This document shows positions 3,933 through 61,077 of a stretch of DNA of 64,000 nucleotides, piece after piece. Both the position numbers and the translations under genes were made by a program. Source of the DNA: Candidatus Omnitrophota bacterium. GTDB taxonomy: Bacteria > Omnitrophota > Gorgyraeia > 2-01-FULL-45-10. Within the stretch, counting starts at the first letter, position 1. Every line of letters begins with the position of its first letter. The notes under the pieces were generated by a model. That model was not told the origin of the DNA. It saw nothing but the letters and a program-made list of their open reading frames with translations, and ran no database searches. The stretch lies in assembly GCA_028699255.1 (NCBI GenBank), contig JAQVUX010000006.1:89928-153927 (forward strand), read 5' to 3'.

Positions 3933-3956
3933 AACGGGAGAGGGTATAAAGAAAAT

Positions 3957-4736: not shown

Positions 4737-4749
4737 ATGGAGGCGCGCA

Positions 4750-4983: not shown

Positions 4984-4999
4984 GCACAATGAGGAAAAG

Positions 5000-6123: not shown

Positions 6124-6139
6124 GGTGAAGGAGAATAAT

Positions 6140-25683: not shown

Positions 25684-25718
25684 GGTATAGATAACCGGAT
25701 TTCGAAGAACTTAAGGAG

Positions 25719-26969: not shown

Positions 26970-26978
26970 GGCGGTATA

Positions 26979-30128: not shown

Positions 30129-30209
30129 AGCGGAGATATCCGCGTATAGATTATCAAAGTCAACCACAGGCCAACCTGCGTGGTTGATCGCGTAATATAA
30201 GGGATTCCG

Positions 30210-33200: not shown

Positions 33201-33341
33201 AACTTGTGGAGCCCGCTCGCTATAACAGTCATGGGAGGGCTGACATCCTCTACTATACTTACACTTCTTATAGTCCCCAATGCTTATATCATATCCGAAG
33301 ATATAAGAGTCTGGATAGCCGCCAAATTGAAGAAAAAGTAA
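30210..33341 (+). CDS. RND efflux transporter, AcrB/HAE1-type, pump 2 (tandem paralog)
   Basis: 1043 aa, 'GLALGVGMLVDNAIVVFENIVHK', same topology. Confidence 0.9.
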   Translation: MSLPTFSIKKPITMLVIYIMLVMSGIVSLAQLPVELYPNISFGEISIIIEVRGGIPPTEVEALVSKPVEEAVGSVSHLEEMMSISKEGESTVVLSFEPGINMEFAALDVREKFARVKNKLPKEIEKPIIAQFKRSDVPIVILAVTSLRRTTEEIRKIVDENVREAIKRISGVADAEVAGGRERKILIEADQRKMAACNLSLERLISAVGQNNLNLLSGDINKGNNKYIIRTIGLYTTVDDVKNIPVSAMPDGTMIRLKDVATVLDSYLEPSGYARVNIRPVVSIYVQKESTANTIKVAAQIEKEVERLKTVLPKDIQIVVTSNQANFIKSAIDNLKDALIKGAALVMLVLTIFLIRLDKKFMMIVLAILVSVVLMPPFLLLPLVIIMSIAFVSIARIRSVAIVSSAIPISVIITFTLMYAMKLTLNFMTLFGLALGVGMLVDNAIVVFENIVHKHEKGIEGIPAAIEGTEEVWVAILAGTLTHICVFLPMVFVGQEIKLLYGGVAWTVVFSLLISLFVAITVVPLLVSRSKIQLEKVTFLDNVYRLQRKWVVKFMRYRYRVMLFALILFLGSLFFFTRLGMEFLGTTEQNKFTAFIELPTGTKLDVTDTIVKKVEALIKEIPEVKTFSSRVEPWSSKVYVELVSLMQRKRSVGEVIESLRPKVERIRPAFIYFEEEQEVGTKEVVIELFGYDYAKLREIAISIATRLGTIKGFTDTKIRMREGRPELGLKVDRTRASLFDMTVSEVADSVHAQMRGLRATLFHTSSSEVETIARLDEKYRKTFKDVHKLILMNKNDDSIYLEQMTDFKYGLGPSEIWRKNKTRVIQVSANIGKLPLSKAAEMTKKALADLRLPEGYYWRLGGNYPTMVATQKQVWPILILTVLLIYLVLASLFESYHQPLIIMLAVPLALVGVVLSLYLTGKSVGMGVFVGMIMLGGIVVNNSILLIDHANNLRRQNINHVKAIILASRDRLRPILMTTSTTLLGLLPMAISTQEGSNLWSPLAITVMGGLTSSTILTLLIVPNAYIISEDIRVWIAAKLKKK

Positions 33342-51600: not shown

Positions 51601-54600
51601 GATACTCTGCGCAGAAGTATTTTTGGTAAAGATTACATAGGCACGCCAAAAGAAGCGGTAATAAGCAAAACCGGTAAGGGTGATGCGGAAAACACCGTTG
51701 TCCAGGTACAGAACACCCGCAATGAATACGGCGAAGCGGTTATTTCCTCGCTCGGCGTCCTTTTCAGAAGTTTTGCGAATAATCGTTCGGCGGTTGGATC
51801 AGCCATATTTACAAGTGATACGGCGCAAGGCCCGCTTAAGACGATGGAGCTTATACTTGCCAGTATGGAGCAGTTACGACATGGCGAAAGTAGCGCTTTT
51901 ATAGCCGGCAGAAACAACCTGCCCGGGGTGACCGGTCCCGCCCATGGCAAAAAATGGGGCGGGTATCAGCAGTTCTTCGTCGCCCTTTATTTCGGTTTTA
52001 TGCATCATATAGCATATACAGGCAGAGAAAATGACCAGAGGGACCAGATATTTGTGTATGAAAAAGGCGGTAAAAAGTTCTTCGGAGAACACCTGAAGAA
52101 TTCCAGAAGGACCTACGGGGATGATAGCGTAAGAGATTCTAACGATAATATAAGGGAAGTGCTTATCGAAGAAGAGGATTGTGATTTCTATATAAAATTA
52201 AAAGAGGGAGATAATAAGTTTGTTTATGAAGAGATAGTCGTCGTGGATAATAATAACCCTTCGCAAAACCTTACCGGCGTAGTATTTGATACGCGACATT
52301 ATCTGATCGATTGCGAAAATAAAGATAAGATATTGCGTGTAGTCGCGGACGGAATATTTGAGTTTAAAAAAGATGTGGAAAACTACAATGGTAAACCCGG
52401 CGCATGGGTGTTGGTAGCGAAAACCGATCAGATAAAATTAACAGAAGATGGTTATCTGATAGATCCGGAAAATGCGGTCAAAGATATAAAAGATTTTTAC
52501 GGGAATATTTTGCCGAAACGAGTAAGACCGGCTATAGTTCAGCAGGTCACAGGTAAAGACATAAATGGCAACAGGCGCGTTCTGCGGCTTGAAAAGACCG
52601 GAGATATTATCGATCCGATAACCGGAAAGAAGGCTGGAACCATATTCGATAAGTCGGCTCAAAAAATGTATTACGGTGTGGACGCAAATTATAATCGCAC
52701 AAATCTGCTCATGACATCAAAGTTATTCAGGAAAGGCGAGTGGGAATACGTTGACGACACAACTAAGGATGCTGTAAGGGATACAACAACAGGCATAATA
52801 TATAAAAAAGGGCCATATACCAATCTTGCTATGGATAAGAACACCGGCGCTATGTTTTTGAAATTTGCAGGCAAGACGCTTGATTTTGGCGACGGCAGGT
52901 TGATACCTCTGGAAAGAGTGAGGGCGTTTAGTCCGGAATCCGTTAATCCGCTTGTCGATAATATTATAAAACGCCGGGGCGAATTCCTGATCCATGGTGA
53001 TAATCTTGTAACCGATAATAACGGGCAACCGGTAAAGGTTAAGGATTTCTGGGGAGAAGATGTGCTGATATCGCTGGATAATGCTTATGTTGACAGTCAT
53101 GGTAATCTTATTCATTCCAATGTAACGGAATTACTCGCGGTAAAAGAAGCGTGGGAGATAGATCCTTATACCGGTGATGCGGTGGTTAAGGGGAGCGGGT
53201 TCAGGGGAGACGGCCATATCCTGGCGGCGAAAAATAAATGGGTTGCGGATAAAGACGGGAAATTATATGCCAGAGGTATTACTCAAAGCGAGGCCGATTA
53301 TGCCGCAAAGACAGGCGTGTATGGACTTTTGGATAAACTTAATCTGGGCCTGACAGGGGTTGAGAATAATTGGTATATAGAGGATCCGGAACATCGCCTG
53401 CCGCTTGCGGGATATCCTGTCCAGAGAGTAAGGAACGGCTGGGTTGTTAACGAGGGCAAAGGATTTTCACTCGACGCATCAGGTAATGTAGTGTACACAC
53501 CAAATTGGCTTAGGGTCGGATGGCTGTCGGACGAGACTTTCGGCGAATTACCCGCCTTAACAATACCTGCAAGTAACGTAAAATCGATATCGAAGGACAT
53601 TACAAAGATAAATTACGCGAAAGACAACCGCCTAGAACATATAGAAATTCTCGCAGATTTTGGCAGTTATTACAAGGATGATAAAGGTAGTTATTATAAA
53701 CGCCGCAAAGTTGGATATTTAGATGAAATAAGCGGTGAGCCGGTATGGTATGGTGAAGCTCCCCCCGGAACGGTTCGTTTAGATTTAAAAGGCGGCTTAT
53801 GGGTGGACACGCCCGATTCATTGGATTTGACCGCATGGGCCGGCCGCGGTTATGAAATAGGTATAGCGCAGAATGGCAACCTGGTGGCTATTAAAGCCCT
53901 CGCCGATAAGGCAGAATACGAGATCGACCGCGTTACGGGCAATGCGCGTATCACCTCCGGCGCGAACAAGGGACAGCAATACAGGGTCGGCACATTCTTA
54001 AGAGTTGGGGAATACGGTTCTTACAGATTTATCCTTTCGCTGGAACCCCGCAAGACACAGCTTCCTTACGATATTTATCCGGACATTCAAGGCATAGGCG
54101 CCGATGGACTTATTTCCTCCGACCATCTTATGGCAAATCCAACGCTTATGGAGTATCTCGTCCAGGCGCCTCAAAGGCCGCGGGCTATAGACCAGACGGA
54201 TAGTGAAAACGAAATAATGGATAATGATACCGCGGAAAAATTGAGTGTAGCGGTCAGAAATCGGGAAGGCTTCGATCCGGATAAACTTTATTACACTATA
54301 TTCGGCATTCTGCAAAGAGAGCTGTACATGACGAATGCCGGTGAGTCGGAATACGCTTATCTGGGCGGCACGGCGCATGATATGCTTAACTATATAGCCG
54401 CGATGAATAAGTGGAGCTTTGAAGAATCCTCCGCATACGGGAAAATGTTCGATGTTCTCGGTATATACGCCCTGAACGTTATATTTACGGAAGCCATACC
54501 GCCGTTCGCGCGCTGTCACGATCACTGGGAGGCGTTGAAGGCATATGCTCTGCTTCTGCCCGGTTTCTGGCGCGATAAAGAGAGGTTTGTCGGAGACGAA

Positions 54601-57600
54601 TACTTGTCCCCGAACATAGTAAAGATGGCTCAGGTACAAGGATGGATGCCCGGAGACATAACGCTCTTTTATTACGAGATATCGGCATTGAAGGTTATAT
54701 TGGACGCGCTCAGCGGTTTGTGGCCGAAAGCAAGCCGCTCCATAGATGATCTGCATGAGAAACATCCGTTCTCGGCCGGTTCAGGTAAGGCGATGTCGAT
54801 CATATTGTACGGCGCTTTTGGAACGCTCGCCTTCGCTGTATGGCTTATGGCCCTCGGCGTAGTCAGTGTATTGGTGCCGGGCTTGCGCGAAGCCCAGGAC
54901 GCATGGCGCTCGAACCTGCTTTTTGGTATCGTTATGTTAGTCATGATAGAAATATCGAAAGCTGTGATATCCGGCATAAAGAGATTATTTGAACAGGAGC
55001 GCAATGATTATATCGTCCGGCTGTTTGGCAAAGATATAGTTATAAGCAAGGCGCTTGTAAATCTTATCTTCACGGCTTTCTTTGTAGCACTGACGATCGA
55101 TGTCGGATATTTAGGGTTGAGTCCGCTGATTTCCAAGACGATAGCGCCTAATATAGCGAGCGGGAAGAGCGTCGTAGGCGATGCGGCCGCATATTTTGCC
55201 ATAGCATTCGGCATTACAAATGCATTGATTTATTTTTGGTCCATGTCCGTCACGGCTTTAAAAAATAACAAAGCCATCCGTCGCGCCCCGATTTTATATC
55301 AACCCGGGAAAGATAAAGCATATAGCTGGGCCAAGTCCGTAACGCGGTATTTGATAATTCCGGCGATTTTGGCCTCCGCTATGTTTGCCATAGGACATTT
55401 TTTCCCTGACCATTCTCCACTGGCGCTAATTCGGGACCAATTTGTACATCTGAAATACGTACCTTCCGCGAGATTCGTACCGGCTCTCGTAAATATGATT
55501 TTCTATAATATAGTACCTTATATCTTGCCGTTCTACCTTATAATGGGAAACCTGTCATCCATAGCCGCGAGATATCTGGAAAAGAAATTCGGATGGCAGT
55601 TACTCTATGTGAATACAGATATCTATGATGTGTCTTACAAAGCGCAATGGGAAACATTAAATTCTACAAACCTGCTAATGGTATGGCTTTTCTACCAACC
55701 GATGGCATTCTTTAAATCACTCTTTGTGGTAGGCGTAAAAAGACTGGAGCCGGCCTGGGTAACAGCGGCAAAATTAGCTCTCGAATATTCCGGAGGATAT
55801 AAGCTCTGGGAGTCGTGGACCGGCAAAGATTTCAAAGTAAACAAACAGATGCTGTTTGCGGTCATACCGGCTGTGATATTTGCTTGTTTTACATGGAAGA
55901 CCGATTCATGGTTCGGCTATACGATGTATGGTATCTGGCTGGCGTATATAATCTGGATATCCGGTACGCAAAAGACGCCCACAGCATTAATATTGCCGGT
56001 AGTCTTTTCATTGACACTGCTTTTGGCGACCGCTGTCATGGGACTCGATTCCTCGATAGTCTTAATGGGATTCCCAATCTATATATGGTCGTTCCTCTTC
56101 GCCCCGTATAAAAACTGGACGACCGGCATGTTCGGAGGGTCGCCTCATTATAGCACTAACTCAATGGTGGAAGCCACGCGCCAGATCAGGGTGTGGGAGC
56201 AGAGATACCTGTTAGGCATGGGTAAGCCGGTTGAAGATAGCGAGGCCGTAAAGAAAATAATCGGATTAGATAAGTTCTTCAGGGATGGCAAGAACGAGCC
56301 TACAATGCTTAACCAGAGAGATAAGTTACGACTATTGCTGTTCCATCTTACAAATATAAACCTTAATATAAATCCGATATTTGAGCAGTATATAGATAAG
56401 GCGCTTGAAGCCCGCCGGCCGGAGGAAGAGGCGCGGTTGAGAACCAAAGGATTTATAGTAGAATCCCGCAGATGGCCGAGATTCCAGGAGTTCGATAAAT
56501 CGCGCGAGAGGGCTTTTGCGATATTGGATGAGTTGCGTGGCAACGCGGCTCTAAGAACGCAGTACGGCAATGAAAAACTGGAACAGCTTATTAATGAAGA
56601 AAAGAACCGCTGGATATTGCGTGACGCTGTAAATAAGGCGATCATCCGCCGCGCGCATGAATTGGCCGGGATAAAACGTTTACGGGAAAAAGATTGGGAT
56701 ACGCTTTCCGTCCTGACGCGTTTGGAAATATTGCTGGAATTATTGAAATCAAAAGATATTGATGTGCGATCGGCCGCGGATAACGCGCTGACAACGCTGG
56801 GCGCCGCGGATAATAGAAATGTTGCCGAAACCACAGCGCTTATGAATGCGCTCGCCGCAATAATAAATCGCATGGGGCCCAGGGCTTACAATATTACGGA
56901 TTGGGAAAAACTTCGCCGCTCCGAGCAATCCGGTTTTATTAATTCTGTGCTTAAGTATTTTTCAATTACGGGAGCACGCGCCAAATATATTCGTACTTTA
57001 TCAAAACCATTCCGAAAGTCCACCGCTCCGGCGACGTCGCCGGTAGTTATGAAGGGCGGCGTAGAGGGCGGCAGATATGAGATCGTCACGGCAGATATAA
57101 TAGACGGCGCTATACAGAACTATAATGGTGTCGGATATGAAGATACAGATACAAAATTAAGGCAGGATCTGAATAATGCCATAAAGCGGATTTTTACGCT
57201 TGATGGATTTTCTGAAGAAGCAAAAACTAAAATAGCGGCAAAGATTATGAGCCTTTTAGGCGATCAAGCCTCGATAAACGCATTATTACAAAATAAGAAA
57301 CTTAGGGTGGTCGAAGGTAACGATCGTCTTATGCATTTTACGGAAAGCGCCGATACGATAACGCTGGATATAGACGCGCTACTTCATAATAACGACCTGT
57401 TATTCATGGAATTGGTCCACGAACTCTTGCACGCTAAACTCGCGGCTACCCAGACAAGGGCGGGTCCCGCGGCGGATCTCGCTACGCGTATTCAGGAAGA
57501 GATAGAAGTTACCACACAGGAAGTAGAGTTATTCCTCGCGTTCCCCAAAGATGCTCAAGACAGGATCCTCGCGGCATTGGCCGCCGACAACGACCTCGAC

Positions 57601-60600
57601 GACAGAAATTTCAGGCAGATACTTGTAAAGGCGCAGGCGGAAGGCCTTAGCACCCGGATAAAAACCGACATCGAAAGATATGTCGGAACTTTAGGTAGCG
57701 TCGAATACGCGTTGCCGCCGCAAGCTACATGGTCGCTCGAGAAGAATGCGCCGGAATTGGTCGGCAAAACGATAGTTACGCTTTCGATGGAAGGCAATAT
57801 CCCGGAATTTGAAGGATACGCCGCGCAGAATGCCAATACAAAAGGCGGTCTTGGCGCGTACTTTGGCGATAAGTTAGAAGGATTGTCGAAAGTAGGAGCC
57901 ACGGCTTACGGGATAACGCCCAGATATGCTATGGCCGGTGATCAGAATGTTGAGGCGGATTATCGGGAACTTGTTCGTAAAGGTATTTTAAAAAGAGTAC
58001 AGGGCCGCGACGGTAAGCCGTTAACATTGCGCGTTTCGGCGTGGGATGAATGGGATAAGGATAATGCCGATAACAATCCTGTTTATGATGTAGAGGTTTA
58101 TGTCGTAAATCGCGGCGGAACTCCTTTGTATGTACTCTCAATGCCAATGGTCTTTGACAGTTTATATACAGATAATCGCCTGCACCGCTATACGCAAGAG
58201 ATCGTTTTCGGGAAAGCGGCCTTCCAGTTAATGGAAAAACTCGGGCTACCTCCGGATATTTTACATTTGAACGAAGCGCATACCGTAGTAGCCGCGGCTC
58301 TTATTAAGGCGGATATAGCGAAAGCCAAATGGGCGCGGGAAAACCTTGGCTCAAGCCGCAAATCTGTTTTTGAAAACAAAAATATGAAAGTTGTGCTGAC
58401 GAACCATACGCTTGTTTCCGCCGGTATGGAGATGCATCAGCCGGAGCACATGTACAATGCGAATATAGACCGCATGCGGGCCATTCTCGAAATACCCGCA
58501 GAAGTCGCGGGCCAATATGGCAGTATGTTCCTCAAGAGGCATATACTCGATAGCGAAGATCACCCTATCAGCCCAGCATCGCTTAGCGCGATAGGCGTGC
58601 GATTGAATGAAAAGGGTGAACCTGCCGACGCGGATAGCTGGAAGCGTTTTAATGCGGCAGGCTGTAAGTACAGGATGATAGTCGATTTCTGCTACGCGGC
58701 TTTTAAACTGGCAGATGAGATGAACGCTGTAAGCGAAGAGCATGCTTTAGCGACCACAAACTTATTCAAAGCCCTTTACGGGAATGAGTTTAATAAAAAA
58801 GTTACAGGGATATTAAATGGTTCCGGTAATACATGGAAAAACCGGGAGCTTTTAAATGCTGAAACCGGTAATAATGTTCCGGACTCCAACGCGTTATATG
58901 ATATTCACGAGAAGGGCAAAAAAGAGGCTTACGCAGAAATAGAAGCGCGAACCGGAGTGAAGCTTAATCCGGATAAGCCGACGGTATGGCTCGTAAGACG
59001 GCTTGTGGAATATAAGAGCCAGTATCCGATACTCAGGTTTATAGTTCCTATAATCTGTTCCGGCAGGGGCGAGGTCTTTACCAGGGAAAAATTAATGAGG
59101 ATATGGATGGAAGATATCCCGGCTATGAGCGGCGCGGATGCCAATAGGCGCTATAACCGGGATATGCACGCTAAAGCTAACCGAATACTCGATATGCTAT
59201 TCGCCGGCAAGACCGAAATACGCGGATTGGATATGCAGATGGTGATTGCCGGCCCGGAGTATGAACATGGTTGGGTCAAGCGCTTCAAGTCATGGCATGC
59301 GAAATATGACGGCAACTTTGTTTACGTCCCGAATTCCGACGCAAAATTACTAAAGATGCAGGCGATAGGCTCTGATGTATGTCTTACTATACCGCGTCCG
59401 TTGGAAGAAGCGTGCGGTACGTCCGACCAAAGATCGGGTATGAACGGAGGCGTTACAGTTTCGATTAACGGCGCCGGCCCTGCCGAATGGGTTACGGAAT
59501 TTAATGAAGCTACTCTTGAGGGCAACGGATTCCTGATAGGTTCATATACAAAGATGACGCCGCAAGGCCTCGAGGCCGATATTGATGGATTCTACGCAGA
59601 TGCCCCGGCCGATGTATTTAATAAGCTCACAATTTGTTCGCGGCTATTTTACGAAAGAGGCACAAATCCCGCGTGGAAGCAATTGATGCATAATTCGTAC
59701 ACGGCCGCGAATTACGGCGCTCTGAGTAAGAAGGCGGTTACGGCCAAGGCGATGGAGGAAAGATACGCGGTGCGCGTATATGCGCCCGCGCTTAAAGCCG
59801 CCGCGGAAGTTTCGCAACAGCAGGTTGTTGCGGCATCCGCTATAAGCATACTTGCCGTAGCGGCCTCTACACCGCTTGGGTCATTTGTGAATCAGGTAAT
59901 AAATAATTCGTTGGATGCCATCGGAATGCCACACTGGCTGGCGGGTGTTATTATTATAGCGGCATTAGGTATAGCCGCGGTGATAAAAATAAAGAAGGCG
60001 GTTATCTCTTCGAAAATCACCGTCGGAATACCGCCCTCGGCAATCACTACACGCAAGGCGGCTATCGAAACTATCCTCAGCTCGGCAGGCGGTAAATACG
60101 AAGTGGTAACCGTCGATAATATCGCCTCATTCGCCGATGAGTCCGCCGGTAGAGGCACAGCGAGGATATTCATAGATAATGATATCTCCGAGGAAGCCAT
60201 AAAAGAGCACATCCTATTAGCGAAGCTCGCCACAAACTATTCCGGCGTATTGGCTACAGCCAATATAGACAGGGCATTGGTAAAAGAGATAACTGACCTC
60301 ATTAAAGATATCCTCGGCGATGATGCCATGAGCTTAAACGCCGCGGAAATATTCTCAAGGGTAAGCGAAGCCGTCAAAGATTCGGTTAAAAAAGAGAAGA
60401 TAGCCCGGTTAGCGGGGCTCGTAGTAACCCAGAGCCAGAATCTTACGTCATTCGCGAATAATCATTCCCCGAGATTCAATCCATCCGCGAGAAAAGAAGA
60501 CTCGGCCATCGCCACAGCCGCGACAGACACAATAGCCGCCAAGTCGCTTGAATTCGCCGATGATGTACGTCGTAACGCCGCGGAAGGCCGCAAAACATCG

Positions 60601-61077
60601 CTCATATACGGCGAAGTTTACAAAACGCCTCAGCAAGCCGAAGCTTTCATAAGAGCGCTCGGCCTGAACATGGCAAACATAGAGCTCATTGACGGTAATG
60701 CCCTGGGCTATGACAACGATACGATAGTCGCGCAGATAGCGAAGTCTACGCCCGGATTAAATGAAGCAAAGATAGGCATAAGAGCGGCTGTAGGCCAGAT
60801 TAAGGGTAGGCCTACTAAAGGCAAGCTATTGGAAGTGCCGTCAGTCACCATAGGCGGCAAGAATGTCCTTGTCACGATGAATACGGAAAAGGTATTAGTC
60901 AGGATGCTGCAACTACCGCCTGATAGTGTCGCGGTGGAAGAGCTCGGTATCCAGGGTCTTGCCTATGATCAGGAGACCAACCGGTATGTGTATCTACAAC
61001 CGATCGTGCCGATCAACTACGCCGAGGAGATAGAGACGTATCGCGCGGCGATATTGGTACTGGCCGCCGCGGCGTAA
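33640..61077 (+). CDS. Giant gene: 27,438-nt uninterrupted ORF encoding a 9,145-aa multi-pass membrane mosaic protein (glycosidase-like + GT35 phosphorylase-like domains, internal repeats)
   Basis: Single open frame in ORF track with no in-frame stop for 27.4 kb; own promoter and RBS; terminator-like hairpin downstream. Confidence 0.85.
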   Translation: MLAWQSKTFIKGGLVSNDVSVREELGNASLIMDWRSPHNKWWMRIVAVTLTLCFIYQDVVWAQDGQPVWSKPANEKWGQSPSGTVPISLNTNIAIPKDIATTKEAYNGSNSSSPKTIIQIQDAHASLAAQESISSILDSLVTNYDLKLVAVEGSSGYIDTSILKTFPDEGIRRNTAEYLMQKGKMSAGEFYSVTSNKNIALYGIEDKDLYKANVEEFKKIYEANQSVRKDITGLINTLKAIEDKVYSKELKALEDNSVLNTNGKVSFTDRWAYISALASKVGIDINGKMSQSKGTVPFGDSPLFPNLSKLVESIKLEKEISFDKANKERDALIDVLSKSITKTELEKLVLNSLSFKQGKITQGEYYVFLQGLANDNNVSPLKYKNLINFTDYITLYESIDLLEIFEEAKVLEDAIKDRLYTSPDQRKLHDLLKCANFIKDIFDLKLTNSDFEYLAKSLKTWNADTIAQFIEETGNRVGYTSGNRVGNLRGCTGDDGYDLDNIFSNLPIAIQFYNTAERRNNVILNNTISRMNKEGQTVAALITGGYHTKGISELLKQKETSYLVILPKFDASKPERPYVAILTNKKDNYEELLESGKYQLLTDNYLKDGIQDPKKIEGFIKEIVVVSIGQAAIERKDIASVKKLWIESYRRSYEALMEKGIVKKPSSEPGAAEGSSEKFSKPGLGKGNRFYKPGLESQEQGYGDQHIATTTNFSPVALEKFIQLIDDINAIRISDAVAVVELGDTRWTIAISSDNTITRREPTPAELRGFNSQLRKIASQPASTEHVPSAAQRVKILEGTTRDLLIDAIVERMHGVSTEESFDDAVRGKTAYTNLTVDGQREIRQAVMNRFKPIETAQKVTVVSRIPEAFITRNAQAKKNKEERRGKIEVIVKDAGQDGITITKILSQLTAQGVTVSRSTVFNDLKELAAKSDAVITIEKASGKANIYRIRPQATPVPEAAPIETPQAVAPVAEVTPAPAVEAAPAPETPELSPEEISQAVDEGLARLTRQNDGFEHALIRSKFTTNAENKLLATVEILVDSRGVPRYLADEKNTISDEERNTLTEVAVTVDDTGRINPETIEVSSPEKSKLSDQAKTTLQQITAKYNKQLPSSLRIIAKRAVSAVTHFMENAWSAAKEHLESISPEQKRVYLIVFIMGIAGVVSALMFTYLACIGNLNISPVSLRTTEGGINLIAALGISAIIRKSAVSRIPEAFITRNAQAKKNKEERRGKIEVIVKDAGQDGITITKILSQLTAQGVTVSRSTVFNDLKELAAKSDAVITIEKASGKANIYRIRPQATPVPEAAPIETPQAVAPVAEVTPAPAVEAAPAPETPELSPEEISQAVDEGLARLTRQNDGFEHALIRSKFTTNAENKLLATVEILVDSRGVPRYLADEKNTISDEERNTLTEVAVTVDDTGRINPENIEVFHGKELSDQAKTTLQQIIAKYNKQLPYSLRIFAKRAWNAAREKLGSVLSIQKISPDFLARTISYTLAGSLILALFVFWQPAAFTGFVHNVEWFLGTVVSSTSLSYHGVSLSAGKIMLALSMFELVATPITLGLKIMLKRAGMAEDVPVVDATSTADEINAAMKARFGYTVDELQAAMEAQALKRATGEQGEVALKKIRALFEGFGHDKWQLLRTYKLLESGWFDTLGVLAAASRRQRLGPVLNFINNMINPIELLKIIYGFYPAFYLEKIKRSFQSGGAELLQLNEKQAEQAMPMFGTSDTRELVLDIFARSVMPRIGNTKSVSSYMWTGGLQYVSAVWADSIYIKGTLQFIKARLTLAFASRVGSILILTPLSWMFNLNGQWLAGAAQKFFSGQMGLQLPVPGAVPGVANLASNENFLFGFIPGIAKTMAPINYAGVMAREFIISGAAKQLTLAAVAGAFSTTFVLRIFAGARRLYSDYRQTGKINIAKYMTTAAIVAMVMSIGKSTWGMWLVNVEIPMVLGQAAVADRVMFGQGGGTYLHDTLALVEGHEGAIGVGNTIFDRTLSMLGIGAPVAEQAPAPATIPSVPQAEKAEAAKVIAPTVEKPLEIAKPVVVPEKAAVKSTVAQAPAPLREKELAQTPSAPITEKAKRVTVFKPVAVTKPVEALPPRVESSEAKTREAALSDNRSRGALAYKTEMAAYDAANNNKDYSGAFAHLDKSINIIEALIKNGNSDLPGMLAQLKATRQDLLQRYAFGDPDGYKNTIAAYIEINARYDSDLKKYNAAAKAGNAKDALKYATLCASEIREMLAAGAAKLYPQLERASKKWSDIENYQRTKSASPVVKSQETAKVTTKDELAENAIQYWAESQILRGRYLEAIQKTANLKAEYDNYINKSIKLRGISPVIDARLKTLAGEIAASQRAEKNALKAMSALKDAAEKKEADIKSFRYKNLLKAYSIANDHYAKAAGDRELALEYLEEMIIIAGKMAQLYDKNADVKELLKQLQARVPVRYPILANSYLNVIRQLTFANKNGKIDSLTLQKASFKLNKEILKELQAIKTTPRFVRTREERLYDGRALGNEKSEWPRREIKDINEEIKIIEQFVADNEAKLRAKDLQYKFLRGEKSFSDYKKEAAAIFSKFGFKISIPAREADARSAIIEDAIVTEQIAASSVRSQLQEISEELGRRTLTPQNKGYVRRDSLRQAIQSRLDEVNGRIKSLQVAEKAVKEGKPLPKGLDLPVIELEEPKADMAKLRPLLVEPTVEMLGIPHAPAELKPFVADIIKQGLGIDNPSDKSIDILAHLFSRYFETHYFVHADERAQYFKLMTAILRELKAQGFFESQEVLLPGEEMSSMWSANLSGPVSNSEVQLLTKTFPEKRSELSVINRLGFASSMACHIMRVRYIDNSAPDNLLSDLQAVPEGQMDNYVKLLVSNILKLKPRMESAIGMSVSISSLGRTGWGCVMSAAVYLSAARSVNLSPVINSGKDRFDVRGLVFPSFGIDADSVPSSWLKKAVGPGGSIRENAEFYGPDNDKERILIGPTFDNADLNMIPVSIILGKRAEQGAIETLTNLWNFKGIYRVDDNVSEAIRIREILSVYLEYMGEPSDAEIAASPELRNEFAEWDRIIAQSNDPYVRQKEMSAKDEARQEMRDSILLGNAMYWWERARKERHDFSVAEFRELMKQVKADSVDAIQILKLIHGKDYQPDFHRAADMGWLISYSLPRLLESKESADKTVPAQGPVSPRGMSRIEAFNLLLDADKDGNLRDLTEKYLAKTGSLVNYGKLTPTALLDPQVWGKIQFLASNYLEGKEAPSAVKNFAGMVKARIRMIDAAERLGQTKDKVISVYEGTREEALKAYINSQESAHRRVMGARPVSDAMRRAWEKRFASQWDLYHTMKKAYIETKASEYKKDAGVSDVPKELFSIWGSEFPGMYWEGNLSSEAENFEKKATEKQVEKEIIVRPPTEEIKSIKTPVAKPAAQPASEKGAQTIPAIPSFARMLFNALIGQHPANIDSLAPKDYPVWGISTADNPENPEQYEELGAPIGSKDRANKGYPDKQIITPYAAVLALDCAPKEAVRNITQILNRYPQAIGKYGPYDSIDLKSGAVSNTYVADNKGMEFITIANYFSGGAVQKYFSGSSIVKQALPLLNENFSRMKMPDGLSLEKNISKEEKETLLKLEKAAWDYFADNSNASTNWLPPNRINSGESKSYTSITNIGLYLAGIVAAEKRGYITSDEAKDRLSKALDAISKLDTWNGLFRNYYDLGTLKSSTKSDRLISPVDNGWLAAGLIVAGEAHPELKDKAHGVVTGMQFGHLYDKNAGNLVNNYDENSGPASSHYGLIYTEIRPTLIIAIGLGKLNKDPSVPIVPETAWHSTARTLPADWDWQAQRPDDSYYSYKVNVNGKEETVCFVPSWGGSMFEGLMPNLFIDNKIYSPKGYAIQDAVYVFLHKYFATGASAQKVETPVTQPVKVAPAEKPAVAVPSPEAKILPIVTREQAVSQESLVSGVPQTPESPLVIPGYISDAIAGAKPGNTADEGVEAVLKLRELLSILADEKVFSIADEGGAFDNALISYEKKRSAELNKLFKGNDKLAKSVLREELKNFAVQYRGGVINSTANTFFFDLGISDPGVVEKIIRADKYIDMVGKSNKHPLSAPEVGNWRKEFLERVYLTEAERKLNEDPKRELLIKRMGERKDLDDWRGSKLSGKAGEAYRYISDLFRLIAYLETAAIDVSEDIKKEEKVQEGRPVDDYAALNTLLEAYRATGKAIPAIEVLAAKTQSADFAFWRSARDHIEELEQLKNTLLTEQDFAKRPDEITRILEKAKDLRSYAKKDPVRGLLIQQFVDLADPENPAKAITADDKKTYVNESPSNMAFAKVNALLLGMDQVIKMMKKNRAEELKTMKEFSDTMFEERIRIAEELRAHELKASEFNEDWQKNKTGWAGRVWSRMFGSSAESRAIEAERKRSDDFRTALYDYSVLYNCYLSRQKTPFETAIAEAQFLYEKLTKERTRENIADLEWYEAARAAKKELFYKTYLQMVSKSVGRELKGGDLSFMFKEITLDPYMRRQKDNYKQKLGNDYPENVKEQMGERFVSDKIAEYVKLEALVMELEANLRKNQEIPEYAPQFSRGITTATYMEYDEKNMSYDEKARNIREWFKDASLCQRFAKKYLGYYFGYYTLQHVVRTMREDDRATPVLFEKPDRAEANFKSKYSTDLAYKNYGPRLNNMHDTGYALRVTFDAVDDNRYDLLLKELDRINGGKASGEIRMVRDEAVERLGSFHNELAKLLLRFYNSKPRESVERDVTELEKEALAGIIENLTINLETRNKEYADANKKIWENAAERQELIKEVRRNRKRGYDSLERFDRTNTVGRLSIEMNDALKVANRVMPPDAKISINQERIDYFVTQCMESGMTPMEQVDIAFIKPQALRKIYVEIFGKEPTPHQWEDIRFYVESKMDLDGWTEDNVRVCIVYGEYIREIYKTLPGARQPNDGETKMLVEHMLKNGILPINTNVREMNIEPNRITVKALIEKRLAPERVIKLTADILTTLERKEYGKLSGEEEFINQVFYLMGYVLDTNIVEKPEDAKPSYNKEALVKNIGDRLKGLNIEGSGYTTQELAGKIVDNIINRGLQADNFPALVDRLLQMKTRINKVDDIIRDKKTKAKSEGREFEFNEEQRADIVPISENDLNILAVLDDSRQNRSDGIGIAEIAGFKRDSSAWKRLKEDVKKPIDALWGGLLNSEAESRYNAIRGKIIDAAFARYKGKYTKEYLGSMVDRLIRAGLYTPEGELTEVAKIAGLQKAVLSMRGVEPSSDTEELKRQLDRIRDNAPEDILEKAELAAWQKTAQLFGVSDIAATKVGIKEQLAARLLTLEKNIKEAAELAGLRALATEEFGINNPGRNIIEATDQIQRSARENKVPFVNESEYLVDLRAKAGALGVTTRAGASNEKELLNKAIAEAEEKLPRTLKYYADNAFLRYFAAEIGVSAKSGDETSVRKEAADEARAKAEVMLNEAKLEGLKTEARLLGITSADSDAEGLQAQIDAEARSIKTKESEVLDKVKTGLSVDSTAMFKSMAKIGIISSVVTLSLSLLGYVIRNLRKWLNLLRAKPQAAEQPQEAARAAVPAPQAVPVSPGAPIEPQIAPTAPVPATIVDNTKNTERKFWSKGLWDMSFMMMKLSVQISVAYSLLFKGPVSPFAGWAFNFGALGTFLKSVWAYFFTSGIIDFDSFGVFLQSASHDLQALAPFAAVGLAIGVVTLIMNQVVKYGRQSVGIRILKEKPGFAGTLHLIAKSAFLAPVLAFASYFFISKGNLIATSGAGNAIWLFSSPVIVLGAIFAIIYVSNKLLIKAFPRSSTLRSISVLGITVAGIATIAMFLPGGLFSNFANVFTFGVYAYIIGKFSFRTFEFISSALQIPARFVWDREGEKAWSKEALWDGWKHFKGSLNNFVFEGVLFSTTMVYVFVTQNMFTSVGWLVALGAALYYYSNNSAASLTAGQVFYIGKNFVKTTSFALSIYFFAQIGIALSGGAAVASISQNLGYIVLITVINIFVDTLRRSIFGKDYIGTPKEAVISKTGKGDAENTVVQVQNTRNEYGEAVISSLGVLFRSFANNRSAVGSAIFTSDTAQGPLKTMELILASMEQLRHGESSAFIAGRNNLPGVTGPAHGKKWGGYQQFFVALYFGFMHHIAYTGRENDQRDQIFVYEKGGKKFFGEHLKNSRRTYGDDSVRDSNDNIREVLIEEEDCDFYIKLKEGDNKFVYEEIVVVDNNNPSQNLTGVVFDTRHYLIDCENKDKILRVVADGIFEFKKDVENYNGKPGAWVLVAKTDQIKLTEDGYLIDPENAVKDIKDFYGNILPKRVRPAIVQQVTGKDINGNRRVLRLEKTGDIIDPITGKKAGTIFDKSAQKMYYGVDANYNRTNLLMTSKLFRKGEWEYVDDTTKDAVRDTTTGIIYKKGPYTNLAMDKNTGAMFLKFAGKTLDFGDGRLIPLERVRAFSPESVNPLVDNIIKRRGEFLIHGDNLVTDNNGQPVKVKDFWGEDVLISLDNAYVDSHGNLIHSNVTELLAVKEAWEIDPYTGDAVVKGSGFRGDGHILAAKNKWVADKDGKLYARGITQSEADYAAKTGVYGLLDKLNLGLTGVENNWYIEDPEHRLPLAGYPVQRVRNGWVVNEGKGFSLDASGNVVYTPNWLRVGWLSDETFGELPALTIPASNVKSISKDITKINYAKDNRLEHIEILADFGSYYKDDKGSYYKRRKVGYLDEISGEPVWYGEAPPGTVRLDLKGGLWVDTPDSLDLTAWAGRGYEIGIAQNGNLVAIKALADKAEYEIDRVTGNARITSGANKGQQYRVGTFLRVGEYGSYRFILSLEPRKTQLPYDIYPDIQGIGADGLISSDHLMANPTLMEYLVQAPQRPRAIDQTDSENEIMDNDTAEKLSVAVRNREGFDPDKLYYTIFGILQRELYMTNAGESEYAYLGGTAHDMLNYIAAMNKWSFEESSAYGKMFDVLGIYALNVIFTEAIPPFARCHDHWEALKAYALLLPGFWRDKERFVGDEYLSPNIVKMAQVQGWMPGDITLFYYEISALKVILDALSGLWPKASRSIDDLHEKHPFSAGSGKAMSIILYGAFGTLAFAVWLMALGVVSVLVPGLREAQDAWRSNLLFGIVMLVMIEISKAVISGIKRLFEQERNDYIVRLFGKDIVISKALVNLIFTAFFVALTIDVGYLGLSPLISKTIAPNIASGKSVVGDAAAYFAIAFGITNALIYFWSMSVTALKNNKAIRRAPILYQPGKDKAYSWAKSVTRYLIIPAILASAMFAIGHFFPDHSPLALIRDQFVHLKYVPSARFVPALVNMIFYNIVPYILPFYLIMGNLSSIAARYLEKKFGWQLLYVNTDIYDVSYKAQWETLNSTNLLMVWLFYQPMAFFKSLFVVGVKRLEPAWVTAAKLALEYSGGYKLWESWTGKDFKVNKQMLFAVIPAVIFACFTWKTDSWFGYTMYGIWLAYIIWISGTQKTPTALILPVVFSLTLLLATAVMGLDSSIVLMGFPIYIWSFLFAPYKNWTTGMFGGSPHYSTNSMVEATRQIRVWEQRYLLGMGKPVEDSEAVKKIIGLDKFFRDGKNEPTMLNQRDKLRLLLFHLTNINLNINPIFEQYIDKALEARRPEEEARLRTKGFIVESRRWPRFQEFDKSRERAFAILDELRGNAALRTQYGNEKLEQLINEEKNRWILRDAVNKAIIRRAHELAGIKRLREKDWDTLSVLTRLEILLELLKSKDIDVRSAADNALTTLGAADNRNVAETTALMNALAAIINRMGPRAYNITDWEKLRRSEQSGFINSVLKYFSITGARAKYIRTLSKPFRKSTAPATSPVVMKGGVEGGRYEIVTADIIDGAIQNYNGVGYEDTDTKLRQDLNNAIKRIFTLDGFSEEAKTKIAAKIMSLLGDQASINALLQNKKLRVVEGNDRLMHFTESADTITLDIDALLHNNDLLFMELVHELLHAKLAATQTRAGPAADLATRIQEEIEVTTQEVELFLAFPKDAQDRILAALAADNDLDDRNFRQILVKAQAEGLSTRIKTDIERYVGTLGSVEYALPPQATWSLEKNAPELVGKTIVTLSMEGNIPEFEGYAAQNANTKGGLGAYFGDKLEGLSKVGATAYGITPRYAMAGDQNVEADYRELVRKGILKRVQGRDGKPLTLRVSAWDEWDKDNADNNPVYDVEVYVVNRGGTPLYVLSMPMVFDSLYTDNRLHRYTQEIVFGKAAFQLMEKLGLPPDILHLNEAHTVVAAALIKADIAKAKWARENLGSSRKSVFENKNMKVVLTNHTLVSAGMEMHQPEHMYNANIDRMRAILEIPAEVAGQYGSMFLKRHILDSEDHPISPASLSAIGVRLNEKGEPADADSWKRFNAAGCKYRMIVDFCYAAFKLADEMNAVSEEHALATTNLFKALYGNEFNKKVTGILNGSGNTWKNRELLNAETGNNVPDSNALYDIHEKGKKEAYAEIEARTGVKLNPDKPTVWLVRRLVEYKSQYPILRFIVPIICSGRGEVFTREKLMRIWMEDIPAMSGADANRRYNRDMHAKANRILDMLFAGKTEIRGLDMQMVIAGPEYEHGWVKRFKSWHAKYDGNFVYVPNSDAKLLKMQAIGSDVCLTIPRPLEEACGTSDQRSGMNGGVTVSINGAGPAEWVTEFNEATLEGNGFLIGSYTKMTPQGLEADIDGFYADAPADVFNKLTICSRLFYERGTNPAWKQLMHNSYTAANYGALSKKAVTAKAMEERYAVRVYAPALKAAAEVSQQQVVAASAISILAVAASTPLGSFVNQVINNSLDAIGMPHWLAGVIIIAALGIAAVIKIKKAVISSKITVGIPPSAITTRKAAIETILSSAGGKYEVVTVDNIASFADESAGRGTARIFIDNDISEEAIKEHILLAKLATNYSGVLATANIDRALVKEITDLIKDILGDDAMSLNAAEIFSRVSEAVKDSVKKEKIARLAGLVVTQSQNLTSFANNHSPRFNPSARKEDSAIATAATDTIAAKSLEFADDVRRNAAEGRKTSLIYGEVYKTPQQAEAFIRALGLNMANIELIDGNALGYDNDTIVAQIAKSTPGLNEAKIGIRAAVGQIKGRPTKGKLLEVPSVTIGGKNVLVTMNTEKVLVRMLQLPPDSVAVEELGIQGLAYDQETNRYVYLQPIVPINYAEEIETYRAAILVLAAAA
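33991..36267. repeat. 2.28-kb long direct repeat, copy 1 (5' region of giant gene 1)
   Basis: Near-identical to 61724..64000 (offset 27,733 bp); spot-checked lines identical. Confidence 0.9.
36225..37262. repeat. Intragenic tandem repeat unit 1 (1,038 bp = 346 aa) within giant gene
   Basis: First ~690 bp near-identical to 37263..37928; identical antisense ORFs at +1038 offset in track. Confidence 0.9.
37263..38040. repeat. Intragenic tandem repeat unit 2 (partial, diverging after ~690 bp)
   Basis: See unit 1. Confidence 0.85.

What the first reader, a model, noticed from the sequence alone, without database searches (positions are those of the whole stretch)
57750..59780. GT35 (alpha-glucan/glycogen phosphorylase)-like domain inside the giant protein, with the PLP lysine apparently replaced by Arg
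The segment carries recognisable GT35 landmarks in the correct order: 'LSMEGNIPEF....GGLGAYFGDKLEG' (compare FSMEF...GGLGxLAGD), 'HLNEAHTVVAAAL' (compare HLNDxHTA), 'VVLTNHTLVSAGMEMH' (compare FTNHT/TtHTpvpaGh), and 'PRPLEEACGTSDQRSGMNGGVTVSINGAGPAEWVTE' (compare PRRPLEASGTSGMKAALNG...LDGWWAE). In the last motif the Schiff-base lysine column reads R-S-G-M rather than G-M-K. A phosphorylase fold embedded in a 9-kaa membrane protein, possibly non-catalytic or PLP-independent, is highly unusual. Together with the glycosidase-like domain it suggests the protein handles an alpha-glucan or other polysaccharide at the cell surface.
Basis: partly seen in the sequence, partly recalled or inferred. Interest (0 to 1): 0.75.

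Follow-up and report, generated by a model that had tools for sequence, protein, structure and literature searches.

The report
Phosphorylase-like domain lacking its cofactor lysine
Near the end of a 9,145-residue membrane protein sits an intact glycogen-phosphorylase-like domain in which the lysine that normally holds the vitamin-B6 cofactor is an arginine, and this holds for a whole uncharacterised family of such domains, so the family probably acts on alpha-glucans without the cofactor thought to define these enzymes.

Summary
All four motifs lie at the stated coordinates, inside one uninterrupted ORF (33640-61077, 9,145 aa). The domain (aa 8028-8724) gives a confident GT-B model (pLDDT 94). 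Its best fold and profile match is the GT35 phosphorylase of Segatella copri (profile E 2e-67; GT5 synthases only about 1e-3). That enzyme's PLP lysine, Lys609, aligns with Arg8598.

This is a family trait. Of 147 related domains, 125 have Arg and 10 have Lys. The aromatic residue at the rabbit Tyr648 column is Tyr/Phe in all Lys forms and small in 74 of 78 DQR-motif forms. The sugar- and phosphate-site residues stay essentially invariant. Planctomycetota relatives fuse the domain to a debranching glucosidase and a GH13 domain.

Best reading: a catalytically competent, PLP-independent alpha-glucan phosphorylase or glucosyltransferase. An NDP-glucose-dependent synthase is the main rival.

Embedding in giant proteins is usual in Omnitrophota, where the domain has been reported as "GT5". 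The neighbouring glycosidase-like domain belongs to the beta-1,2-glucan clan, not alpha-glucan. Which side of the membrane the domain faces is unresolved.

Rating: new variant of a known kind.

The parts
33640..61077 (+). Giant ORF of 9,145 aa that carries the domain. It has about 20 or more hydrophobic segments.
   Evidence: ORF list, translation, Kyte-Doolittle scan. Only two enzyme-like domains are detectable in the whole protein.
57721..59811 (+). GT35-like GT-B catalytic domain, aa 8028-8724. This is the finding.
57841..57855 (+). K-GGLG glycine loop, aa 8068-8072, corresponding to G134-G137 of rabbit phosphorylase. The preceding basic residue is specific to the Arg-type family.
   Evidence: GGLG present in 119-120 of 125. 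Column 31 is K65/R26 in Arg-type sequences against A5/S4 in Lys-type.
58267..58281 (+). LNEAH motif, aa 8210-8214 (GT35 'LND/ExH').
   Evidence: E175 in 125 of 125, H177 in 102 of 125. GT5 has HxHDW here (own knowledge).
58399..58410 (+). TNHT motif, aa 8254-8257; the His corresponds to His377 of rabbit phosphorylase.
   Evidence: H219 in 124 of 125, T220 in 119 of 125.
58816..58836 (+). NGSGNTW, aa 8393-8399, corresponding to Asn484...Trp491.
   Evidence: N356 and G357 in 125 of 125, W362 in 121 of 125.
58996..59016 (+). RRLVEYK, aa 8453-8459: phosphate-binding Arg and Lys, corresponding to K568-R569...Y573-K574.
   Evidence: R416 125/125, R417 124/125, Y421 123/125, K422 125/125.
59335..59337 (+). 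Ser8566, at the column of ScGP Tyr577 and rabbit Tyr648 (the aromatic residue beside the cofactor ring).
   Evidence: Column 529 is Y9/F1 in Lys-type sequences and S/A/C/G/T in 74 of 78 DQR-type sequences.
59407..59433 (+). EACGTSDQR, aa 8590-8598. Glu corresponds to Glu672. Arg8598 (59431-59433, AGA) occupies the PLP-lysine column.
   Evidence: The column is R in 125, K in 10 and other residues in 12 of 147 domains. All six Arg codons are used at this column in 76 loci.
54796..56106 (+). Cluster of about 10 hydrophobic segments, aa 7053-7489, upstream of the domain.
   Evidence: Hydropathy scan and inspection.
59824..59991 (+). One or two hydrophobic segments, aa 8729-8784, directly after the domain.
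   Evidence: Whether there is one segment or two decides the side of the membrane and is unresolved.
60052..61074 (+). C-terminal tail, aa 8805-9145. No family assigned. It travels with the domain in the two closest giant ORFs.
   Evidence: 33% and 30% identity to the ends of the ORFs in L006 and L007. No Pfam or NCBIfam hit.

Best explanation
The segment encodes an intact member of an uncharacterised clade of GT35-like GT-B enzymes found in Omnitrophota, Planctomycetota (Sedimentisphaerales/Phycisphaerae), Sumerlaeota and Elusimicrobia. This clade has given up the covalently bound pyridoxal phosphate (PLP) that defines glycogen and maltodextrin phosphorylases.

Shown:
- The Schiff-base Lys is an invariant Arg.
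- The aromatic residue at the rabbit Tyr648 column is small.
- A Trp of the 'DGWW' loop is Gly, and a basic residue has appeared next to the GGLG loop.
- Every residue that in GT35 holds the glucosyl unit and the substrate phosphate is invariant: Glu175, His219, Asn356, Arg416/417, Tyr421, Lys422 and Glu553 in domain numbering.

Inferred: the domain is catalytically active on alpha-1,4-glucan chain ends and transfers glucose between the chain and phosphate (phosphorolysis, or its reverse from glucose-1-phosphate). It would do so by the front-face, SNi-like route of retaining GT-B enzymes. Arg8598, possibly helped by Asp8596 or a second bound phosphate, would supply the charge stabilisation that the PLP 5'-phosphate gives in classical phosphorylases. 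GT4 trehalose phosphorylases also work this way without a cofactor (own knowledge). A degradative role is suggested by fusions with a debranching glucosidase and a GH13 domain.

In this organism, as in most Omnitrophota, the module is one station of a giant multi-pass membrane protein. Its side of the membrane is not determined.
For: Relation to GT35:
- Family profile against solved structures: ScGP 2.1e-67, E. coli GlgP 1e-28, MalP 3e-24, rabbit 1e-22. GT5 synthases reach only 4.5e-4 to 5e-3.
- TIGR02094 E 3.8e-29 for the window and 1e-31 to 1e-36 over nearly the full model in homologues.

Loss of the PLP site:
- Lys609 of ScGP, the PLP site, aligns with Arg8598.
- Of 147 aligned domains, 125 have R, 10 have K and 12 have another residue.
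- K always co-occurs with Tyr/Phe at column 529 (10 of 10). The DQR motif co-occurs with a small residue in 74 of 78.
- All six Arg codons are used across loci, so the Arg is old and selected.

Catalytic competence:
- Catalytic columns are invariant in 124-125 of 125.
- The window copy keeps 124 of 138 columns that are at least 90% conserved in the family.
- The domain is by far the best conserved part of otherwise unalignable giant ORFs.

Alpha-glucan degradation:
- P0090 (1,541 aa) is the Arg-type domain plus GDE_C amylo-alpha-1,6-glucosidase (TIGR01561, 1e-63) plus GH13.
- P0039 and P0051 carry GDE_C (Pfam 3.6e-95 for P0039). P0047 and P0056 carry GH13.

Context: Seymour et al. report the PLP pathway M00124 as missing or incomplete across Omnitrophota.
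Against: - No activity has been measured for any member.
- Pfam sees only the GT5 N-terminal model PF08323 in the window domain; PF00343 is not reached.
- The Arg-type changes remove bulk (Tyr to Ser, Trp to Gly). That fits a larger replacement ligand, such as a nucleotide, better than a collapsed pocket. The added basic residue beside GGLG recalls the KxGGL lysine of GT5.
- Standalone cytoplasmic relatives also carry Arg, so export is not the general reason for losing PLP.
- M00124 is only one of the two PLP pathways, so its absence does not prove PLP scarcity.
- No conserved gene neighbourhood supports any pathway assignment.
Confidence: 0.5

Rival explanations
1. The domain is a nucleotide-sugar-dependent alpha-glucan synthase with GT5-like function on a GT35-like scaffold. 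The pocket vacated by PLP would bind the nucleotide of ADP-, UDP- or GDP-glucose, and the domain would elongate a glucan. It could be a surviving or re-evolved 'proto-GT35', as speculated in the literature.
For: - PF08323 passes its gathering score (33.8 against 22.7 bits), and NCBI's pipeline names homologues 'glycogen/starch synthase'.
- Arg-type-specific changes enlarge the pocket (Tyr to Ser, Trp to Gly) and add a basic residue next to GGLG. 'EACG' resembles GT5 'EPCG'.
- The 2024 Chem Rev review proposes that PLP replaced a nucleoside monophosphate in a proto-GT35 NDP-sugar enzyme.
- Giant Omnitrophota proteins often combine PF08323 with phosphoglucomutase and ROK kinase modules.
Against: - Profile similarity to solved GT5 enzymes is about 60 orders of magnitude weaker than to GT35.
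- GT5 hallmark motifs are in the GT35 form: LNEAH instead of HxHDW, TNHT instead of TIHN, RRxxxYK instead of RxxxQKG (GT5 motifs from own knowledge and the table in PMC6210743).
- The adenine-stacking Tyr355 column of E. coli GS is Ser. This mapping rests on motif spacing and on my recollection of the EcGS sequence.
- The basic residue is one position out of register with KxGGL.
- Fusion partners are a debranching-type glucosidase and a non-branching GH13, which suits degradation rather than synthesis.
Confidence: 0.25
2. The domain is still PLP-dependent. The cofactor, or another phosphorylated aromatic cofactor, would be bound non-covalently or to a different lysine. The Schiff base itself is not part of phosphorylase chemistry.
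For: - The residues that bind the cofactor 5'-phosphate are retained: Thr557-Ser558, the GGLG loop, Arg416, and Trp362 (Trp491 equivalent) in 121 of 125.
- A Lys-type sequence (P0101, NMK) nests among Arg-type sequences in a rough NJ tree, so K and R forms may be functionally interchangeable.
- Reduced-Schiff-base phosphorylase remains active (own knowledge).
Against: - The aromatic residue at the rabbit Tyr648 column is lost exactly in the Arg forms: 74 of 78 small, against 10 of 10 aromatic in Lys forms.
- Asp at column 559, two residues before the Arg, puts a negative charge near the cofactor site.
- No family-specific lysine could be placed in the pocket from sequence. Lys41 and Lys390 are conserved, but their positions could not be checked.
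- No GT35 enzyme with non-covalent PLP turned up in the literature searches.
Confidence: 0.1
3. The domain is a non-catalytic pseudoenzyme: a glucan-binding or scaffolding module in the giant protein that keeps the fold but not the chemistry.
For: - Loss of the residue that defines GT35 catalysis.
- Location inside a huge, poorly conserved protein whose other parts look structural.
- Related short proteins have neither K nor R at the column (DLG, DFG, WML), showing that the site can decay.
Against: - Near-absolute conservation of about ten active-site residues across four phyla.
- Arg itself is in 125 of 125 within the Arg group (by definition of the group), and the surrounding EACGTS motif is invariant.
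- Standalone 618-634 aa versions exist as ordinary single genes.
- Fusions are with active-looking catabolic enzymes.
Confidence: 0.08

Closest known systems
GT35 'clade 2' alpha-glucan phosphorylases (TIGR02094 type; Segatella copri GP, PDB 9L6I)
   Same: - Best sequence, profile and fold match.
- Same order of motifs: GGLG, LNExH, TxHT, NGV/NG...W, RRxxxYK, EA[SC]GTS, then a Gly-rich loop ending in Glu.
- Same two-Rossmann GT-B core.
   Different: - The PLP lysine (Lys609) is Arg, and Tyr577 is Ser.
- 'DGWW' is 'GAGP' in the window and SGGP in the family consensus.
- No DUF3417 N-terminal domain and no C-terminal beta-sheet domain.
- The window scores 101.9 bits, below the TIGR02094 cut-off of 191.7.
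- It is embedded in a 9,145-aa membrane protein.
GT5 glycogen/starch synthases (GlgA, GBSS; Pfam PF08323)
   Same: - PF08323 hit above its gathering score.
- No PLP; Cys in the 'E-x-C-G' motif; Gly-Gly in the last loop. This is the label under which the domain is currently annotated.
   Different: - Profile similarity is only 1e-3 to 1e-4.
- The hallmark GT5 motifs (KxGGL register, HxHDW, TIHN, RxxxQKG) are in the GT35 form.
- About 620 aa instead of about 480.
- The adenine-stacking Tyr column is Ser.
Retaining GT4 trehalose phosphorylase (fungal, EC 2.4.1.231) - comparison from own knowledge, not tested here
   Same: A GT-B-fold enzyme that carries out phosphorolysis with retention and needs no PLP. 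It is a precedent for the proposed mechanism.
   Different: It belongs to a different GT family and acts on a different substrate (trehalose). No detectable specific sequence relationship was examined.
Giant multi-domain proteins of Omnitrophota ('Archaeovorins' and related; bioRxiv 10.1101/2023.11.21.568195 and 10.64898/2026.06.07.730766; PMC10066038)
   Same: - An ORF longer than 20 kb with many transmembrane segments and few recognisable domains.
- A 'GT5/starch synthase PF08323' module is reported as one of the most frequent domains.
- The closest homologues of the domain are in Omnitrophota MAGs, up to 57% identity.
   Different: - Those reports classify the module as GT5 glycogen-synthase-like. 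They do not mention its GT35 affinity or the missing PLP lysine.
- This protein has no dockerin, peptidase or methyltransferase domains detectable by Pfam.
[quoted passage not shown]
   Same: A large polytopic membrane protein that joins a GH189-type (alpha/alpha)6 domain with a glucan phosphorylase domain. The window protein has a GH189/GH144-like domain (8wy1 E 1e-32; Cgs 9e-20) plus a phosphorylase-like domain.
   Different: - The Cgs phosphorylase domain is GH94, not GT35-like.
- No GT84 synthase domain was found here.
- This is only a resemblance in architecture.

Membership tests
GT35 (glycogen/maltodextrin/alpha-glucan phosphorylase) | GT-B fold with closest structural neighbours in GT35 | tested here: met
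   [not shown]
GT35 (glycogen/maltodextrin/alpha-glucan phosphorylase) | Significant sequence or profile similarity across the catalytic core | tested here: met
   Family profile against ScGP 2.1e-67, GlgP 1e-28, MalP 3e-24, rabbit GP 1e-22. TIGR02094 E 3.8e-29.
GT35 (glycogen/maltodextrin/alpha-glucan phosphorylase) | Score above the curated family thresholds (Pfam PF00343 gathering score; TIGR02094 cut-off) | tested here: not met
   No PF00343 hit for the window at E<=0.01. Homologues score 19.6-31.8 bits against a gathering score of 27. TIGR02094 gives 101.9 bits against a cut-off of 191.7.
GT35 (glycogen/maltodextrin/alpha-glucan phosphorylase) | Lysine forming the Schiff base with PLP (rabbit Lys680, MalP Lys646, ScGP Lys609) | tested here: not met
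   The column holds Arg8598. It is R in 125 of 147 related domains.
GT35 (glycogen/maltodextrin/alpha-glucan phosphorylase) | Aromatic residue lining the cofactor ring (rabbit Tyr648, ScGP Tyr577) | tested here: not met
   Ser8566 in the window. The residue is small in 74 of 78 DQR-type sequences and Tyr/Phe in 10 of 10 Lys-type sequences. The role of Tyr648 is from own knowledge; a docking study lists it alongside Lys680, Trp491 and Arg569 as contacts of one docked ligand.
GT35 (glycogen/maltodextrin/alpha-glucan phosphorylase) | Substrate-phosphate and glucosyl-binding residues (Gly135 loop, His377, Asn484, Arg569, Lys574, Glu672, Thr676) | tested here: met
   All are present in the window and conserved in 119-125 of 125 Arg-type sequences.
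GT35 (glycogen/maltodextrin/alpha-glucan phosphorylase) | Phosphorolysis of alpha-1,4-glucan to glucose-1-phosphate | not testable with these tools
   Needs an enzyme assay. Indirect support comes from fusions with GDE_C and GH13.
GT5 (ADP-/UDP-glucose glycogen/starch synthase) | Pfam PF08323 (Glyco_transf_5) above gathering score | tested here: met
   33.8 bits against 22.7, covering only profile positions 16-151 of 239.
GT5 (ADP-/UDP-glucose glycogen/starch synthase) | Score above curated GlgA thresholds, or strong similarity to solved GT5 enzymes | tested here: not met
   TIGR02095 glgA gives 53.9 bits against a cut-off of 328. The family profile against SS4 and GlgA chains gives E 4.5e-4 to 4.7e-3.
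GT5 (ADP-/UDP-glucose glycogen/starch synthase) | ADP-glucose-binding residues: KxGGL lysine, His161 (HxHDW), Asn246 (TIHN), Tyr355 adenine stacking (list in PMC6210743) | tested here: not met
   The sequence reads TKGGLG (Lys one position out of register), LNEAH, TNHT, and Ser at the Tyr column. The column mapping to E. coli GS rests on motif spacing and on my recollection of the EcGS sequence, not on a structural superposition.
Omnitrophota giant membrane proteins | Single ORF longer than 20 kb with multiple transmembrane segments and sparse recognisable domains, including PF08323 | tested here: met
   ORF of 27,438 nt. 24 hydrophobic windows. Only two enzyme-like domains. The definition follows.
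Omnitrophota giant membrane proteins | Organism belongs to Omnitrophota | tested here: inconclusive
   The best relatives of the domain are Omnitrophota MAGs (57% and 52% identity, sharing the C-terminal tail). No marker gene of the window was classified.

The most novel reading that the evidence does not exclude
A whole clade of GT35-fold enzymes carries out alpha-glucan phosphorolysis or synthesis with no PLP at all. An arginine and a remodelled pocket would replace the cofactor that has been regarded as obligatory for this family since the 1950s. The clade would be either a secondary escape from vitamin-B6 dependence or a living relative of the hypothesised pre-PLP 'proto-GT35'. A secondary escape would be useful in lineages reported to have incomplete PLP synthesis, and for modules that may fold outside the cytoplasm.
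Probability: 0.4. Interest if true: 0.8.

Novelty: new variant of a known kind. Interest (0 to 1): 0.62.

Why it matters
PLP bound to a conserved lysine is the textbook hallmark of glycogen, starch and maltodextrin phosphorylases. A reviewed idea holds that PLP was recruited into an ancestral nucleotide-sugar enzyme.

This clade has over 100 sequence clusters. It keeps the whole sugar and phosphate site but has replaced the lysine and the aromatic residue at the rabbit Tyr648 column. That gives a concrete, easily expressed test object of 618-634 aa in standalone form. It can answer whether this fold can do the chemistry without the cofactor, and what takes the cofactor's place.

The result also corrects an annotation. 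What surveys of Omnitrophota giant proteins count as 'GT5 glycogen synthase' modules are, at least in this lineage, phosphorylase-like. That changes the reading from building a polymer to breaking alpha-glucan down. It bears on how these suspected predatory or parasitic nanobacteria use their giant proteins.

Tried and rejected
1. Gene neighbourhood as a functional clue. Two standalone homologues and an all-against-all comparison of ORFs flanking 40 Planctomycetota loci showed no recurrent neighbour. The only 'families' found in many loci were antisense shadow ORFs of the gene itself.
2. A conserved cassette around the domain. BLASTP of aa 7401-9145 against 70 homologues found nothing outside aa 8004-8798. 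Only L006 and L007 share the C-terminal tail.
3. An HExxH metalloprotease-like module upstream (HELLH at aa 7927). It recurs in only 4 of 36 relatives examined, at varying distances, so I treat it as chance.
4. Topology by hydropathy and the positive-inside rule. The signals conflict: the loop after the seventh segment is Lys/Arg-rich although it should be outside, and there may be one or two segments after the domain. No conclusion.
5. Sequencing error or recent mutation (AGA is one transition from AAA). Rejected: Arg is family-wide and encoded by all six codons.
7. Literature searches for a described PLP-less GT35 found none in the held library. This is absence of evidence only.
8. Pocket geometry of the model (position of Arg8598, cavity size) could not be examined because model coordinates are not exposed to the scripting tool.
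Full report
**What is at the coordinates**

The window holds one uninterrupted ORF, 33640-61077 on the + strand, encoding 9,145 aa. They start at aa 8048, 8209, 8251 and 8585, which is nt 57781, 58264, 58390 and 59392. The stated start, 57750, is one base out of frame. BLASTP against 70 homologues delimits the conserved unit as aa 8028-8724, nt 57721-59811.

**Is the similarity more than chance, and to what**

- Pfam reports only the N-terminal GT5 model PF08323 (E 3.7e-8) and no PF00343 hit.
- NCBIfam gives TIGR02094, the alpha-glucan family phosphorylase model, at E 3.8e-29. That is 101.9 bits, below the curated cut-off of 191.7. GlgA models reach only about 1e-14.
- phmmer against PDB sequences finds only the Segatella copri glycogen phosphorylase 9L6I.
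- A profile built from the window domain and 70 database homologues hits that enzyme at 2.1e-67 over 584 positions. It hits E. coli GlgP at 1e-28, MalP at 3e-24 and rabbit muscle phosphorylase at 1e-22. GT5 synthases reach only 4.5e-4 to 5e-3.
- AlphaFold2 with this alignment gives pLDDT 94.3 and pTM 0.92.
- Foldseek ranks GT35 phosphorylases in the first 35 places.

So the domain is a GT-B enzyme. By sequence it belongs next to GT35. By structure it lies about midway between GT35 and GT5. The 'GT5' label from Pfam and automatic annotation reflects only the shared N-terminal half.

**The lysine column**

The paper describing 9L6I states that Lys609 carries PLP (PMC12912991). In both the pairwise and the profile alignment, E601-A-S-G-T-S-G-E-K609 pairs with E8590-A-C-G-T-S-D-Q-R8598. 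The codon is AGA at 59431-59433.

The replacement is a family trait. I aligned 147 domains from the two database searches to a family HMM. This column is Arg in 125, Lys in 10 and something else in 12. In 76 genomic loci the Arg is encoded by all six codons, CGN 51 times and AGR 25 times. A sequencing error or recent mutation is therefore excluded.

**Other changes, and what stays the same**

The column that aligns with ScGP Tyr577 corresponds by motif spacing to rabbit Tyr648. By my own recollection of the sequence it also corresponds to the adenine-stacking Tyr355 of E. coli glycogen synthase, whose role is listed in PMC6210743. This column is Tyr or Phe in all 10 Lys-type sequences. It is Ser, Ala, Cys, Gly or Thr in 74 of 78 sequences with the DQR motif. 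In the window it is Ser8566.

Two further changes track the Arg state:
- The Trp of the 'DGWW' loop becomes Gly (116 of 125).
- The residue before GGLG becomes Lys or Arg (91 of 125), where Lys-types have Ala or Ser.

The residues that in GT35 bind the glucosyl unit and the substrate phosphate are essentially invariant among Arg-types:
- GGLG: 119-120 of 125.
- Glu175: 125.
- His219 (His377 equivalent): 124.
- Asn356-Gly357 (Asn484 equivalent): 125.
- Arg416 and Arg417: 125 and 124.
- Tyr421 and Lys422 (Tyr573 and Lys574 equivalents): 123 and 125.
- Glu553-Ala554 (Glu672 equivalent): 125.
- Thr557 and Ser558: 123 each.

The window copy keeps 124 of the 138 columns that are at least 90% conserved in the family. 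This pattern, with the cofactor site remodelled and the substrate site frozen, argues for an active enzyme that no longer uses covalent PLP. It argues against a decayed pseudoenzyme.

**Distribution and architecture**

A scan of one genome per GTDB species found 77 loci. They come from Omnitrophota (best 57% identity), Planctomycetota (Sedimentisphaerales and Phycisphaerae), Sumerlaeota and Elusimicrobia.

In most Omnitrophota loci the ORF containing the domain fills the entire fetched 13-22 kb, which is at least 4,500-7,285 aa and cut at the locus ends. The 50% representative library has 76 clusters at E<=1e-30, many of them in proteins of 2,500-7,900 aa.

Published surveys already list 'GT5/starch synthase' modules as among the commonest domains of Omnitrophota giant proteins. 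They describe those proteins as poorly conserved with few recognisable domains. Between the window protein and its two closest relatives, only this domain and the C-terminal tail can be aligned. Embedding in a giant protein is therefore the rule in this phylum and not an oddity.

In Planctomycetota the domain is a standalone protein of 617-640 aa without an N-terminal hydrophobic segment. Alternatively it is fused C-terminally to a GDE_C amylo-alpha-1,6-glucosidase, a GH13 domain, or both. P0090 (1,541 aa) has TIGR01561 at 1e-63 plus GH13. A phosphorylase-like unit joined to debranching-type modules is what one expects for glycogen or alpha-glucan breakdown. This is the main reason I rank phosphorolysis above synthesis. 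Gene neighbourhoods gave nothing.

**Mechanism**

The following steps are shown:
- GT35-like fold and motifs.
- Absence of the Schiff-base lysine and of the aromatic residue at the rabbit Tyr648 column.
- Conservation of the substrate site.
- Fusion with alpha-glucan catabolic domains.

The following steps are inferred. [quoted passage not shown] Arg8598, perhaps with Asp8596 or a second anion, would provide what the PLP 5'-phosphate provides in classical enzymes. Cofactor-free retaining phosphorolysis on a GT-B fold has a precedent in GT4 trehalose phosphorylase (own knowledge).

The main rival is a nucleotide-sugar-dependent synthase. It is supported by:
- The loss of bulky residues around the former cofactor site, which suggests a larger ligand.
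- The new basic residue near GGLG.
- The review hypothesis of an NDP-sugar-dependent proto-GT35.

It is weakened by the GT35 form of every other motif and by the fusion partners. Non-covalent PLP and a non-catalytic role are less likely, for the reasons given under the rival explanations.

A rough NJ tree shows one Lys-type sequence nested among Arg-types. It also shows short relatives of about 520 aa that keep the Tyr but have Arg or neither residue. The K/R state has therefore probably changed more than once. The tree is too crude to give direction.

**Location**

The domain lies between a cluster of about ten hydrophobic segments (aa 7053-7489) and one or two segments at aa 8729-8784. Positive-inside signals conflict, so the side of the membrane is undetermined.

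About ten Omnitrophota and other homologues of 700-1,170 aa begin with signal-peptide-like sequences, for example MLSLRKISSIVLVVYLCSLINQVSA in P0007. Some copies may therefore work outside the cytoplasm, where a cofactor-free enzyme would make sense. The standalone forms, which look cytoplasmic, also carry Arg.

Seymour et al. report the PLP pathway M00124 as missing or incomplete across Omnitrophota. This is suggestive only, because a second PLP pathway exists.

**The other domain**

The 'glycosidase-like' region at aa ~3450-3900 is related to three groups. [quoted passage not shown] It does not support an alpha-glucan reading of the whole protein. No other enzyme-like domain is detectable in the 9,145 aa.

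**Verdict**

I found no description of a GT35-like clade without the PLP lysine in the searchable literature. The modules are currently annotated as GT5 synthases or generic 'glucan phosphorylase'. I rate it a new variant of a known kind, interest 0.62.

Noticed in passing
window 36225-36800 and 37263-37838: There is an exact 576-nt direct repeat inside the giant ORF, offset 1,038 nt (346 codons, in frame), with near-identity for about 100 nt more. It duplicates aa ~863-1054 at ~1209-1400, including a weak winged-helix-like region (FUR/ArgR hits at aa 880-946, below cut-offs). It is either a very recent internal duplication or an assembly artefact.
   Followed up: partly
window 43999-45340 (aa ~3450-3900 of the giant protein): This (alpha/alpha)6 glycosidase-like region belongs to the beta-1,2-glucan clan. 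[quoted passage not shown] A beta-1,2-glucan-type domain and an alpha-glucan-type domain share one polypeptide.
   Followed up: partly
window 60052-61074 (aa 8805-9145): The C-terminal tail after the last hydrophobic segment has no Pfam, NCBIfam or PDB match. It is conserved (33% and 30% identity) at the very end of the giant ORFs in L006 and L007, the two closest Omnitrophota relatives. Domain, TM segment and tail therefore form a conserved C-terminal unit.
   Followed up: partly
window 24013-33341: A complete RND-type efflux set lies directly upstream of the giant ORF on the same strand, ending 299 nt before its start: outer-membrane factor (OEP), HlyD-like adaptor and two AcrB-family pumps. 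A ROK-family protein (22462-23625), a 913-aa TPR protein and a ParA/MinD-like ATPase lie further upstream. All large ORFs in the window are on the + strand.
   Followed up: no
window 152-7234: The window starts with an IS200-like transposase (1431-2105), an ArsP-type permease, a SAM methyltransferase, a DsbD-like protein and an SBF/ACR3-like transporter. This looks like an arsenic or metalloid resistance cluster and is unrelated to the finding.
   Followed up: no
window 57418-57432 (aa 7927-7931): An HELLH (HExxH) motif lies 121 residues upstream of the domain. Similar motifs occur upstream in L006, L009 and P0005 but not in most relatives, so it is probably chance.
   Followed up: yes
related proteins P0090; L044, L045, L048, L050, L051, L056, L076: Sedimentisphaerales and other Planctomycetota encode proteins of about 1,545-1,567 aa. 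They join the Arg-type phosphorylase-like domain, a GDE_C amylo-alpha-1,6-glucosidase and a GH13 domain in one chain, a possible all-in-one glycogen-degrading enzyme.
   Followed up: partly
related proteins P0101, P0128, P0148, P0171, P0157, P0160, P0162: The cofactor-lysine column is labile in the wider group. One Lys-type sequence (NMK) sits among Arg-types. Several short (~520 aa) or giant-embedded relatives have neither Lys nor Arg (DLG, DFG, WML, FQM, FQI) while keeping the Tyr.
   Followed up: partly
homologues P0006, P0007, P0010, P0011, P0012, P0014, P0060, P0063, P0065, P0069: These homologues have N-terminal signal-peptide-like or anchor-like hydrophobic segments in front of the phosphorylase-like domain. 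This hints that some copies are exported, which would be unusual for this enzyme class. No signal-peptide predictor was available.
   Followed up: no
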